Positions 34,001 through 37,000 of a stretch of 64,000 bases of DNA are shown here, piece by piece (within the stretch, counting starts at the first letter, position 1; every line of letters begins with the position of its first letter). Made by a program: the position numbers. Source of the stretch: Zootoca vivipara (lineage: Eukaryota); contig NC_083292.1 of assembly GCF_963506605.1 (NCBI RefSeq), positions 15,190,001 to 15,254,000 on the forward strand, read 5' to 3'.

Positions 34001-37000
34001 ATAAATGTTTCCCCCTTCTGCAGTGTATCTGAAGAAGTGTGCATGCACATGAAAGCTCATACCTATGACAAACTTAGTTGGTCTCTAAGGTGCTACTGGA
34101 AGGATTTTTTTTCCCCCGACTACGTCAGACCAACACGGCTGCCTACCTGTAACAACCCCCTTCTGCAGTGAGGGAAAAACCGCTTTGCTATGCTTAAACT
34201 GAGAATCCCAGCTGATCAAGATTTTTCTCCCCTCTCAAAATATTTGGTATGGCTGTGGACAAGGTGTAGCCATGCATTACCACCTAGGTCACCTTCCTAG
34301 TCTTTATTACATTATTATTATTACCTTAAACCCTGAGGTGTAGAACACTTTTTCTGGTTGCTCCTTTCTGGGGCCCACCACAATTCCAGTGAAGAGGCCC
34401 ATTTTATAGGAGGCAGTGGGATGGAAGTTAATGCACCAAAAATCTCACCTTTAGGGAGGAGATTCACGAGGTGATCCTAACACAGCAAACTCCTAATAAT
34501 TCCCAGCATCTAAAATGATGCTGTAACCACTTTCTAAATCATGAAGACTAGAAAGCTGCTCTTGAAAATAATATAAAGGCAGGATCTTCACGAATGAACA
34601 CCACACACAATGCCCTTTTGACTGGCCCCTGTCACCACCAAGGAATTGAAGGGATGAAGGAAAACAAAGAAACAATCCCAGCAGCCATGATCTGTGCATG
34701 CACATTTTTGTTACAATCTGCAAACATGCAGTCCCCCAGACGAGTCCTTTCAAGCTGTCTATGGGGTTTTTAGCCCTGTGCAGCTGCTCTTAACTGGAAG
34801 CGGATTATGATGATGTACGTATGTGTTTTTATTAAAAAAAGATACCCACATACACACTGAATCAAGGCAAGACTAATGCTGTCCCCAAGCTCCTCTTTCA
34901 TCGACAGGATCAGGGTGAGAAAGCGGCACACAGCCCAGTTAGCAAAGCAAACGTCTGTGGCAAAGGGGTGCTCCAAACCTCTCCTTTCATCAAGACTTGC
35001 AAGCAGACCCCGGTGCTCTTCCTAATCCAGGGATGGGCAGCATCTTTTCAGATATTGCAGAGATTCCCAGCAGTCCATGTGGCCAATGGTCAGGGGTGAT
35101 GGGACCTGGTAGGTAGTCTGGAGGTTCTCCATAGGTTCCCCACCTGTTCTAAGCTGTGCTGGGCCTTAAAAGGCTTCATCTCTTCTCTGCAGTTATCACC
35201 CACTGGCATATTCCAGGAGTTAGAGAGGAGAAGCTGCTAGCTAAATGGCTTTTGTGCTCAAGCTCGTGAACAGCTGATCTAACTGGACATGGGCTTTCCT
35301 AGCAATGCCGTGGCAGCTTCTGACACACTCAAAGTCACCAGACTCTGGCAACTCCATAGAAAGGAGAAGCCCGACACATTTCCCCCTCCTTGTGTGGGTG
35401 GAGCATCTCAGGAGGTTGTTGCTGTCTAGGGTAAGGAACTGGGAGAATGAGCGACATTTGGGAAAATCCATTACCTGGACTTGGCATTGTTTTCTGTGCT
35501 CCCTGGGAAATAATAGGCCCACAGGAGCAGGCCCACGTCACTCTCAAAATCCTCTTTACAACAGCAGCCCCACAGAATGAACTTTTCCACCCACCCCCCA
35601 ATGTCTGCCCAGAGCACACTGCAAACTGTAGGAAGGATCTTTCCTTTTTTAATTTTTAGACAAATAAAATGAAATCGGGGGGGGGGGAGGAGAAAGAAAG
35701 AAAAGAAAACTGAAAATACTTGGTATGTGTGGAGGGCCTGGAAGCTGGATTGGGCAGGATTACTGCGGTGGGCACTGGAGATACTGAGCCGGTATTGGAG
35801 AACCTCCAGCTGAGAGACACAACACAAAAGGGGGGAGCGGGGGGGGGGTAGAAGAGGCAAACACAAAAATGGAAAGAAACAGGGGGGAAACAACCAGTGA
35901 GAATGAGCCCAGGAAGGAAGGGGGGACAAGGGGAAAAAAACAAAAAGCAAAACCCAAGAATGAGTCACAAATGAATGACAAATACAACCAATGGGAAGAG
36001 GGACACACAACAGCAACAACAACAACAGCAACACATCCTTGGAGCAAAATAGCCTGAAGCAAAGTCTGACCCCCCTTTTCTCACGTTGCGCAAACATTTT
36101 CAGGATGCAAGCTCTTCTCTGGAACCCCAACGCCAAGGTGTTTTGGCAGCGAGGGACAGCAGAGAAGAATTAGGCAGCAAGGGCTGGGGGCTCCTGGATT
36201 GTGGGTGTTTGGCTCAAAATGGCAAAACTGGAGAGAAGCTGGGATTTCTCTCTACGCAGCAAGGCAGTTCTCACACACATTTTGGCTCCTGGAACTGTGG
36301 AGGTGGTTCGAGACTTTGCAGCAACAGTTAGAATTTAACGTCAACAACTGGATTCTAGGAAACCCAAGTCACAGTTATGAGCCTCAAGATTTACCAGGAC
36401 TTTTCCAATCAGCTTTTGCATCGTGTTTGGGGCCTTCTGTCTGTGTCCACAAACAAGCGCCACTGGGCCCTGGCAAAGCAGCCACACAAGGAGTCCTGCA
36501 CCTTGTGCTGGGTGTGCACTGATCTGATCAAGTGTACACCAGGCCAGGCCAGGCCAGGCCAAATTCAGGTAAAAGAAGAGGCAAAGCAGCTGCAGGTGAG
36601 GATGCAACGAATCAAGGGCACTTAGCCTGGTAAACAAACACCAAGGATCTCAAGCCACTGGGAGCAAAGGCTCCAATGCAAACATCTCCCCTGCCTGCAC
36701 AGCAAAATATGCAACTGTGGGCCTGGAACTCATGATTCCCTATGAAAACATTAAGAGAAAATAGTCAAGTCAGCCTCCAAAGCTGATCAGTTGGGGGAGG
36801 GTGGAGAGAGGGAATGCCGTTTTTGCCACAAGAGAGTGAAAGCCAAAACAAAGTGTTTGTATACAGCCCCAAGACCACTCTCTTGGCAAATCTGGTTCTA
36901 AGTAGGCCGATCCCCAGACCCTGCTTTTCCTGGATCTCTCTGGCCCTGGACTCTCAAATTTAGAAATGCAGCGCAGTAGCAGCTGGCACTAGAAACTGTT

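What the first reader, a model, noticed from the sequence alone, without database searches (positions are those of the whole stretch)
34011..34170. Second, independent hammerhead-bearing insert with almost the same left boundary
Seen: a 130-bp insert with a different 15-bp TSD begins 3 nt before the core (TAT-CTGAAGA), forms a clean stem I (GUAU/AUAC), has a C-to-T change making the stem II closing pair G-U, and extends about 40 nt further on the right than the 25557 copy. Both copies share the boundary inside stem I, have long TSDs with apparent junction microhomology, and are antisense to SMPD4. Inference: the ribozyme fold marks a preferred end of the mobilised unit, either a cDNA start or a stop point, and sense copies inside genes may be purged. 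Two copies are too few to establish either point.
Basis: partly seen in the sequence, partly recalled or inferred. Interest (0 to 1): 0.65.

Follow-up and report, generated by a model that had tools for sequence, protein, structure and literature searches.

The report
Penelope-type hammerhead retroposon copy in SMPD4 intron
This is a short, dead copy of a known kind of jumping gene (a Penelope-like element) that carries a miniature hammerhead ribozyme, and its odd end pattern matches what is already known about how these elements copy themselves.

Summary
A 130-bp insert (34026-34155) sits between exact 15-bp target-site duplications. It shares 86 bp at 95% identity with an 88-bp insert at 25557-25644, which has its own exact 13-bp duplication. 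Both start 0-3 nt before a CUGAAGA box.

The motif is not a Rfam hammerhead: there was no hit even at E<=10. It does fit, feature by feature, the minimal dimer-type hammerhead described for the terminal repeats of metazoan Penelope-like elements (PLEs). It has an extra nucleotide after A9, a G10.1-C11.1 pair, no helix III, a palindromic AGCU and a short helix I.

The extra 43 nt on the right of this copy is 70% A+C. It corresponds to the optional 30-40 bp PLE "tail", which in an Anolis PLE was shown to lie between two internal reverse-transcription start sites. So the right ends are cDNA starts and the left end is the cDNA stop.

Three predicted proteins from public data carry the same unit with the same left end, so 5 of 5 copies share it. 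This is unlike random 5' truncation and is the one mildly new point.

SMPD4 is on the minus strand. This copy is intronic and antisense. The 25557 copy lies downstream of the stop codon. Orientation purging cannot be tested. No PLE reverse transcriptase was found, and the source genome could not be searched.

The parts
34011..34025 (.). Left target-site duplication (15 nt) of this insert
   Evidence: Exact direct repeat with 34156-34170
34026..34155 (+). 130-bp retroposed unit: hammerhead + 50-nt body + T-run + 43-nt tail
   Evidence: Bounded by the duplication. 86 bp are 95% identical to 25555-25640
34025..34062 (+). Minimal type-I hammerhead. Helix I 5' strand 34025-34028; CUGAAGA 34029-34035; extra A 34036; helix II 34037-34041/34046-34050 with loop CAUG 34042-34045; GAAA 34051-34054; palindromic GC 34055-34056; U16.1 34057; C17 34058 (predicted cut after it); helix I 3' strand 34059-34062
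   Evidence: Sequence read; descriptor scan; minimum-energy fold shows helices I and II; features compared with PMC4209133
34043..34153 (+). Open frame of 37 codons from the ATG in loop II to the end of the unit; possibly the start of the parent element's ORF
   Evidence: Translations. The unit ends 113 nt after the ATG, and the other copy ends 74 nt after it. No long protein begins with this peptide
34105..34112 (+). Run of 8 T; the point where the 25557 copy and the three database copies end
   Evidence: Alignments
34113..34155 (+). 43-nt extension, 70% A+C, read as the optional PLE 'tail'
   Evidence: Composition; present in 1 of 5 copies; PLE tail described in PMC11167929, PMC8557442, PMC3846280
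34156..34170 (.). Right target-site duplication
25544..25556 (.). Left 13-nt duplication of the sister copy
25557..25644 (+). Sister copy (88 bp), short form: hammerhead core 25557-25586, T-run 25634-25640, then 4 unmatched nt (25641-25644)
25645..25657 (.). Right 13-nt duplication of the sister copy
32853..33164 (-). Open frame holding the SMPD4 exon just downstream (in gene sense) of the insert (Pfam profile positions 317-369)
   Evidence: PF14724, E=1.3e-25
35474..36169 (-). Open frame holding the SMPD4 exon just upstream (in gene sense) of the insert (profile positions 288-318)
   Evidence: PF14724, E=1.3e-05, 23.8 bits against a cut-off of 23.7
26708..27031 (-). Last coding exon of SMPD4 (profile positions 722-818 of 818); the 25557 copy lies beyond it
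   Evidence: PF14724, E=5.1e-35

Best explanation
The insert is a short retrocopy, on the + strand, of the terminal-repeat/ORF-junction region of a Penelope-like retroelement (PLE). It was made by PLE reverse transcriptase and endonuclease.

It carries the PLE-type minimal hammerhead at its very 5' end. First-strand cDNA synthesis began internally in the template RNA at one of two preferred sites. One site is at the T-run and gives the short form: the 25557 copy and the three database copies. The other is 43 nt further on, after an A+C-rich stretch, and gives this long form with the 'tail'. Synthesis ended at the 5' strand of helix I. The staggered target cuts left duplications of 13 and 15 bp.

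[quoted passage not shown] It is less likely to be an effect of ribozyme folding or cleavage.

The copies themselves are probably inert. They are single, whereas this ribozyme type needs a partner copy. Helix I is incomplete in one of them, and they lie antisense to the host gene.

Shown: the insert, the duplications, the motif anatomy, the strand, the gene context and the recurrence of the ends. Inferred: the PLE machinery, tail = second start site, and the cause of the left end.
For: 1. Motif anatomy matches the traits listed for metazoan PLE min-hammerheads in PMC4209133 (whole-text parts 1-2 read):
   - CUGANGA and GAAA boxes;
   - G10.1-C11.1 (G-U in this copy);
   - no helix III, with palindromic 15.2-16.2 (AGCU);
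   - a short 4-bp helix I.
   That paper reports thousands of mostly single dispersed motifs, including in turtle and snakes.
2. Exact duplications show insertion.
3. The right ends differ by 43 nt, and the extra part is 70% A+C against 45% for the rest. PMC11167929 (main text read) shows two adjacent internal reverse-transcription start sites in an Anolis PLE. The commoner one lies in an AC-rich stem-loop 111-118 nt into the ORF, the optional 30-40 bp tail lies between the two sites, and the hammerhead sits at the repeat-ORF junction. Here the long form ends 113 nt after the ATG in loop II.
4. PMC3846280 (passages) describes a terminal repeat that includes the first 12 codons of the ORF and 22 codons with the 31-bp tail. 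It also describes microhomology at 5' junctions. PMC8557442 (passages) describes a 30-40 bp tail and hammerheads in the terminal repeats.
5. The template reads through 8 T in the long form, which argues against a Pol III small-RNA origin.
6. Of the 5 copies, 4 end at the T-run and all 5 start at the helix I/CUGAAGA edge.
Against: - No PLE protein was linked to the unit. phmmer of the 37-residue frame against 1.84 billion representatives gave no long protein starting with it; the 12 hits were 3 short predicted proteins plus unrelated repeat proteins. A word-based search of longer proteins gave nothing.
- No reverse transcriptase or GIY-YIG domain turned up in the 420 open frames of the window that were scanned. 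These 420 were a subset of the 684 frames of at least 50 codons.
- Rfam recognises no hammerhead here, and the fold is not more stable than shuffles.
- The predicted lowest-energy dimer pairs through the palindromic helix II, not through helix III.
- The two target sites are not clearly AT-rich and show no ATT at the junction, unlike the in-vitro preference in PMC11167929.
- The published hammerhead-to-ORF spacing differs. In the Anolis element the ORF starts at helix II and the cut lies 26 nt downstream of the start; here the ATG is in loop II and the cut is 16 nt on.
- Random 5' truncation, typical of PLEs, is not what 5 of 5 copies show.
- Dfam/Repbase and the source genome could not be consulted.
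Confidence: 0.7

Rival explanations
1. The ribozyme itself sets the left end. Either the reverse transcriptase stops at the folded or protein-bound hammerhead, or ribozyme processing defines the RNA end.
For: 5 of 5 copies begin within a few nt of the 5' strand of helix I. In PMC11167929 the Anolis hammerhead cleaves only when the element's protein is present, so protein does sit on this region.
Against: Self-cleavage would cut after C34058, 30 nt to the right of the observed end. By the time the enzyme reaches the 5' strand of helix I it has already copied, and so unwound, the rest of the fold. In PMC11167929 catalytic mutants changed neither insertion activity nor product size, and no RNA-seq reads ended at the cut site. 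The local fold is no more stable than shuffles.
Confidence: 0.15
2. The unit is the constant 3' end of a minus-strand non-LTR element or SINE with variable 5' truncation, and the hammerhead-like motif on the + strand is coincidence.
For: In the window the left ends coincide and the right ends differ, which is the usual signature of a fixed 3' end and a truncated 5' end when read on the minus strand. Rfam finds no hammerhead.
Against: 4 of 5 copies also share the right end at the T-run, which 5' truncation would not give. Read on the minus strand the unit would begin with an A-run, not end with one. The motif meets six separate min-hammerhead traits, and the descriptor hit occurred in only 1 of 300 shuffles of 128 kb.
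Confidence: 0.07
3. It is a monomer of a tandem hammerhead 'non-LTR retrozyme' that spreads through circular RNA, not a piece of an autonomous PLE.
For: Both ends are discrete in 4 of 5 copies, and the unit is small. The bioRxiv preprint 10.64898/2026.07.22.740005 (abstract and results read) reports retrozyme families in reptiles averaging 176 bp, many as dispersed monomers and related to PLE terminal repeats. This reading overlaps with the best explanation, since the same machinery is proposed.
Against: There is no tandem arrangement in the window: the two units are 8.5 kb apart and each has its own duplication. The unit ends are not at the self-cleavage site. The two alternative right ends are better explained by the PLE tail.
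Confidence: 0.2
4. It is a host-exapted ribozyme or regulatory RNA of the SMPD4 locus.
For: There are two copies near one gene, and one keeps a pairing-preserving change (G-C to G-U).
Against: Each copy has intact duplications of different sequence, so they are independent recent insertions. They lie antisense to the gene. The ribozyme type needs a dimer. One database copy has lost the GAAA box at the codon level (K to E).
Confidence: 0.03

Closest known systems
Minimal hammerheads (min-HHR) in the terminal repeats of metazoan Penelope-like elements (Cervera & de la Pena 2014, PMC4209133)
   Same: Type-I layout, CUGANGA/GAAA core, an extra nucleotide between 9 and 10.1, a G10.1-C11.1 pair, no helix III with palindromic 15.2-16.2, a short helix I, and mostly single dispersed copies. 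Reported in reptiles and absent from mammals.
   Different: Helix II here is 5 bp with a 4-nt loop, shorter than the 6-8 bp stressed in that paper. The sequence family itself could not be compared, because the figures and supplements were not available.
Poseidon element PAc of Anolis carolinensis (Frangieh et al. 2024, PMC11167929)
   Same: The hammerhead lies at the repeat-ORF junction with the start codon inside the ribozyme. There are two internal reverse-transcription start sites, the commoner in an AC-rich region 111-118 nt into the ORF, and an optional 30-40 bp tail between them. Here the long form ends 113 nt after the loop-II ATG and the tail is 43 nt, 70% A+C.
   Different: In PAc the ORF starts at helix II and the cut is 26 nt downstream; here the ATG is in loop II and the cut is 16 nt on. 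The AT-rich/ATT target preference is not evident at these two sites.
Drosophila virilis Penelope (Schostak et al. 2008, PMC2377424; Cervera 2014)
   Same: The promoter and transcription start lie in the terminal repeat shortly upstream of the hammerhead. A 34-bp repeat (tail) sits at the start of the ORF.
   Different: The fly element has an intron ending at helix I and a 2-nt helix III insertion. Nothing like that can be seen in these solo units.
Animal non-LTR retrozymes (Cervera & de la Pena 2020, PMC7229834, search listing and abstract only; Li et al. 2026 preprint)
   Same: Small non-coding units with type-I hammerheads, related to PLE repeats and often found as scattered monomers.
   Different: Retrozymes are defined by tandem repeats and circular RNAs. 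These two units are single, each with its own duplication.
Schistosome Sm-alpha / Sj-alpha hammerhead SINEs (as summarised in PMC6765202, passages)
   Same: A short retroposon whose RNA carries a hammerhead.
   Different: Those have a promoter followed by a canonical hammerhead. No promoter part is present in this unit.

Membership tests
PLE-type minimal hammerhead (min-HHR) | Conserved core boxes CUGANGA and GAAA in type-I order | tested here: met
   34029-34035 and 34051-34054; 25557-25563 and 25579-25582
PLE-type minimal hammerhead (min-HHR) | One unpaired nucleotide between A9 and 10.1 | tested here: met
   A at 34036 and at 25564
PLE-type minimal hammerhead (min-HHR) | G10.1-C11.1 pair closing helix II | tested here: met
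   G-C in the 25557 copy; G-U wobble in this copy (T at 34050)
PLE-type minimal hammerhead (min-HHR) | Enlarged helix II (6-8 bp in the described families) | tested here: inconclusive
   5 bp plus a CAUG loop. This is longer than the canonical 4 bp but shorter than described
PLE-type minimal hammerhead (min-HHR) | No helix III; positions 15.2-16.2 palindromic, so that two copies can form helix III together | tested here: met
   A-GC-U at 34054-34057, followed by C17. However, the computed lowest-energy dimer pairs through helix II instead
PLE-type minimal hammerhead (min-HHR) | Short helix I of 4-5 bp | tested here: inconclusive
   4 bp in this copy, one of them using the last base of the duplication; 2 bp in the 25557 copy. 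Codons GTN-TCT in P0008 and P0012 suggest that GTAT belongs to the family
PLE-type minimal hammerhead (min-HHR) | Self-cleavage, as a dimer or with protein help | not testable with these tools
   Needs an in-vitro assay
Penelope-like element insertion | Flanking target-site duplication | tested here: met
   15/15 and 13/13 nt. Published examples in rotifers are 8-10 bp (PMC3846280, passages)
Penelope-like element insertion | 3' end within the start of the ORF, with an optional 30-40 bp tail | tested here: met
   Two right ends 43 nt apart, at 74 and 113 nt after the loop-II ATG. 1 of 5 copies has the tail. That the frame is the element's ORF is inferred
Penelope-like element insertion | Continuity with, or homology to, an element encoding a telomerase-like RT and a GIY-YIG endonuclease | tested here: inconclusive
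   No RT or GIY-YIG domain in the 420 window ORFs scanned. No long protein matched the unit's frame. The source genome, Dfam and Repbase were not available
Penelope-like element insertion | Variable 5' truncation | tested here: not met
   5 of 5 copies start within a few nt of the same point. The sample is small, and the three database copies are seen only as protein
Rfam hammerhead families | Score at or above the gathering threshold of a hammerhead covariance model | tested here: not met
   No hit at gathering score or at E<=10 on 281 and 241 nt around the two copies
Non-LTR retrozyme | Head-to-tail tandem repeats, each with a hammerhead | tested here: not met
   Two single units 8.5 kb apart; no tandem copies
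Non-LTR retrozyme | Unit-length circular RNA | not testable with these tools
   No RNA data available

The most novel reading that the evidence does not exclude
The unit is not a randomly truncated PLE. It is a discrete, ribozyme-headed mini-retroposon of about 90 nt, or about 130 nt with the tail, whose RNA begins exactly at helix I of the hammerhead. If so, in this lineage the PLE machinery preferentially copies a short RNA that starts at the ribozyme, and it uses both internal start sites in vivo. That would make the 5' edge of the hammerhead a functional landmark of the mobilised RNA, such as a transcription start or a processing site.
Probability: 0.3. Interest if true: 0.45.

Novelty: new member of a known kind. 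Interest (0 to 1): 0.3.

Why it matters
The value is mostly annotation. It explains two odd inserts as relics of Penelope-like elements and shows that Rfam models miss this ribozyme type.

It also gives a natural example, outside the one element studied in vitro, of the short/long 3'-end dimorphism attributed to two reverse-transcription start sites.

If the shared 5' end at helix I holds genome-wide, it would point to where PLE template RNAs begin. It would also bear on the still-open question of what the hammerhead does for these elements.

Tried and rejected
- **Rfam.** Scans of the whole window and of both loci at E<=10 gave no hammerhead.
- **tRNA-like Rfam hit** at 58573-58631: ARAGORN did not confirm it, and it is unrelated to the unit.
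- **Six-frame Pfam scan of 15-kb blocks.** It failed because of stop codons, so I scanned single open frames instead.
- **Word-based protein search for longer relatives of the unit's frame.** It found nothing. A region search with P0008 returned only P0008 and P0012.
- **Cluster look-up for the three database proteins.** It was not available, so their organisms are unknown.
- **Lunse et al. 2017** on dimeric PLE hammerheads is not held. I know it only through the citing review PMC6765202.
- **Supplements** with the Anolis element consensus and the min-HHR alignments are closed, so no direct sequence comparison with published families was possible.
- **Thermodynamic folding.** It gave no signal above shuffles. 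Cofolding favoured a helix II duplex over the helix III dimer.
- **Pol III small-RNA retrogene idea.** Rejected, because the long form reads through 8 T.
- **Minus-strand LINE idea.** Rejected, because 4 of 5 copies share the right end.
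Full report
**What is there**

The region 34011-34170 holds a 130-bp insert (34026-34155) between two exact copies of a 15-nt target sequence, at 34011-34025 and 34156-34170. A sister insert of 88 bp lies at 25557-25644 between exact 13-nt duplications, at 25544-25556 and 25645-25657. The two inserts align over 86 bp at 95.3% identity, and nothing else in the 64-kb window resembles them. They are not tandem. This copy starts with TAT followed by CTGAAGA, and the sister copy starts at CTGAAGA itself. 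Its preceding AT is part of its duplication, so it could be target sequence or microhomology.

This copy continues 43 nt beyond a run of T. The sister copy stops at that run, after 4 unmatched bases.

**The hammerhead**

Read on the + strand, the motif runs as follows:

| Element | Sequence | Coordinates |
|---|---|---|
| Helix I, 5' strand | GUAU | 34025-34028 |
| Core box | CUGAAGA | 34029-34035 |
| Unpaired nucleotide | A | 34036 |
| Helix II | 5 bp with a CAUG loop | 34037-34050 |
| Core box | GAAA | 34051-34054 |
| Positions 15.2-16.2 | GC | 34055-34056 |
| Position 16.1 | U | 34057 |
| Position 17 | C | 34058 |
| Helix I, 3' strand | AUAC | 34059-34062 |

There is no helix III. Instead A-GC-U is a palindrome.

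- **Rfam does not see it.** There was no hammerhead hit at gathering score on the window, nor at E<=10 on 281 and 241 nt around the two copies.
- **Folding energy is unremarkable.** The hammerhead-like fold is the minimum-energy structure for this copy but is no better than shuffles (z = 0.05). The sister copy lacks helix I.
- **The combination is still not chance.** A descriptor for these features hit only the two copies on both strands, and only 1 of 300 dinucleotide shuffles of the window gave any hit. I wrote the descriptor after seeing the motif, and the two copies count as one event.

The anatomy matches the "min-HHR" that Cervera and de la Pena described in the terminal repeats of metazoan Penelope-like elements (PLEs). 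I read PMC4209133, parts 1-2 of the text. They list:

- the conserved boxes;
- the G10.1-C11.1 pair;
- palindromic 15.2-16.2;
- a short helix I and an enlarged helix II;
- action as dimers, with low activity in vitro.

They also report thousands of mostly single copies per genome, with families present in turtle and snakes and none in mammals. Two features fit less well here. Helix II is 5 bp, which is on the short side. The G of helix I in this copy is the last base of the duplication.

**Which strand, and what the ends mean**

Published work on PLEs explains the right-hand difference.

- **Anolis Poseidon element** (PMC11167929, main text read). The hammerhead sits at the junction of the terminal repeat and the ORF, with the start codon inside the ribozyme. 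Reverse transcription starts internally at two adjacent sites, the commoner in an AC-rich stem-loop 111-118 nt into the ORF. The optional 30-40 bp "tail" seen in a fraction of genomic copies is the stretch between the two sites.
- **A rotifer PLE** (PMC3846280, passages). The repeat includes the first 12 codons of the ORF, or 22 with a 31-bp tail. 5' junctions formed by microhomology are described.
- **Craig et al.** (PMC8557442, passages). They list strong 5' truncation, the 30-40 bp tail and hammerheads in the repeats as general PLE traits.

Here an ATG in loop II (34043) opens a frame that stays open to the end of both units. The short form ends 74 nt after that ATG and the long form 113 nt after it. 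The extra 43 nt is 70% A+C, against 45% for the rest of the unit. The long form reads through eight T, which argues against a Pol III transcript as template.

I therefore read the unit as + strand. The right ends are the two cDNA start points, and the left end is where the cDNA stopped.

**More copies**

A phmmer search of the 37-residue frame against 1.84 billion representative proteins gave 12 hits at E<=0.001.

- Three are short predicted proteins (P0008, P0012, P0014; 106-146 aa) that are 69-83% identical to the unit.
- Of the other nine, five are long proteins (1131-5005 aa) matching internally at 30-35% identity, and the two I fetched (P0007, P0010) are unrelated repeat proteins that share a CYWKD motif. 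I did not fetch the rest.

In the three short proteins the similarity also covers the codons upstream of my query, (V)SEEVC, which corresponds to (GTA)TCTGAAGAAGTGTGC. It stops upstream of that point. On the other side it ends at KEF(F), which corresponds to the T-run.

Counting the window copies, 5 of 5 start within a few nt of the CUGAAGA box. Four of 5 end at the T-run and 1 of 5 has the tail. A further search found only P0008 and P0012 again, on contigs of 511 and 1168 nt.

A shared 5' end is not what random 5' truncation gives. Several explanations remain open:

- a transcription start in the terminal repeat, as in the fly element, where the start lies shortly upstream of the hammerhead (PMC2377424, passages; PMC6765202, passages);
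- a discrete non-autonomous mini-family;
- a preferred stop of the enzyme.

Ribozyme cleavage itself does not explain it, because the cut would be after 34058, 30 nt to the right. In the Anolis system, ribozyme mutants did not alter insertion, and no RNA reads ended at the cut site (PMC11167929).

**Gene context**

I scanned single stop-to-stop open frames against Pfam, one frame at a time. I left out joining exons into a spliced model.

- **SMPD4** (PF14724) lies on the minus strand, from about 43199 (profile position 14) to the last coding exon in 26708-27031 (profile positions 722-818 of 818).
- **This insert** lies in the intron between the exons in 35474-36169 (a weak hit: 23.8 bits against a cut-off of 23.7) and 32853-33164. 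It is antisense to the gene.
- **The sister copy** lies about 1.1 kb beyond the stop codon, before a CCDC74-like gene (minus strand, 24085 to 18879). No minus-strand AATAAA occurs between the stop codon and 25019, so it could sit in a long 3' UTR, but that is unproven.

With only one intronic copy, no statement about orientation bias is possible. The preprint by Li et al. (abstract and results read) reports depletion of related hammerhead repeats from introns in Xenopus, but it does not give orientation data in the parts I read.

**What speaks against the PLE reading**

- No reverse transcriptase or GIY-YIG domain was found in the 420 frames scanned, out of 684 frames of at least 50 codons.
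- No long protein starts with the unit's frame.
- The two target sites do not show the ATT/AT-rich preference seen in vitro.
- The spacing of ATG and cut site differs from the Anolis element.
- The computed dimer prefers a duplex through the palindromic helix II.
- The source genome, Dfam/Repbase and the papers' supplements were not available, so homology to a named PLE family is untested.

**Origin of the window**

I do not take this contig for human. It carries a repeat type reported as absent from mammals and birds (PMC4209133; Li et al. preprint). I made no attempt to identify the species. The N run at 2588-2724 was left untouched.

**Verdict**

This is a real feature of a known kind. It is a solo PLE-type minimal hammerhead unit, here in its long "tailed" form, and it is most likely inert. 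The idea that sense copies are purged remains untested.

Noticed in passing
window 11961-17548 (+), 18879-24085 (-): MED15-like exons lie on the + strand (PF21538, PF21539). A CCDC74-like gene lies on the minus strand (PF14916 at 23456-24085; PF14917 at 20985-21275 and 18879-19070). The gene order is therefore MED15 > < CCDC74 < SMPD4.
   Followed up: partly
window 6699-6838, 52641-52777, 54640-54743, 56899-57040: A roughly 140-bp repeat family whose copies match each other in both orientations (self-palindromic, MITE-like), 77-95% identical.
   Followed up: no
window 15622-15988, 53111-53647, 57521-58049: An interspersed repeat of 365-535 bp. Two direct copies are 95% identical, and one inverted copy is 76-77% identical.
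   Followed up: no
window 58573-58631 (+): A tRNA-like Rfam hit (32 bits, gathering score 29) covers model positions 8-63 only. ARAGORN does not call it, so it is probably a tRNA-derived repeat head or a pseudogene.
   Followed up: partly
window 25565-25578 and 34037-34050: Helix II of the hammerhead is a perfect 14-nt palindrome in the 25557 copy. Two RNAs are predicted to pair through it (-32 kcal/mol against -15 for two monomers) rather than through helix III.
   Followed up: partly
P0012 residues about 110-120 versus window 34122-34145: P0012 carries RLTRLP about 75 residues downstream of its copy of the unit. This resembles RPTRLP encoded by the tail of this insert. It could be chance or a separate tail fragment.
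   Followed up: no
window 7507-7763 and 60658-60915: An inverted pair of 258-bp repeats, 83% identical and 53 kb apart.
   Followed up: no
window 2588-2724: A run of 137 N (masked or a gap). It was left untouched.
   Followed up: no
whole window: AATAAA occurs 61 times on both strands, against 32 +/- 5 in shuffles.
   Followed up: no
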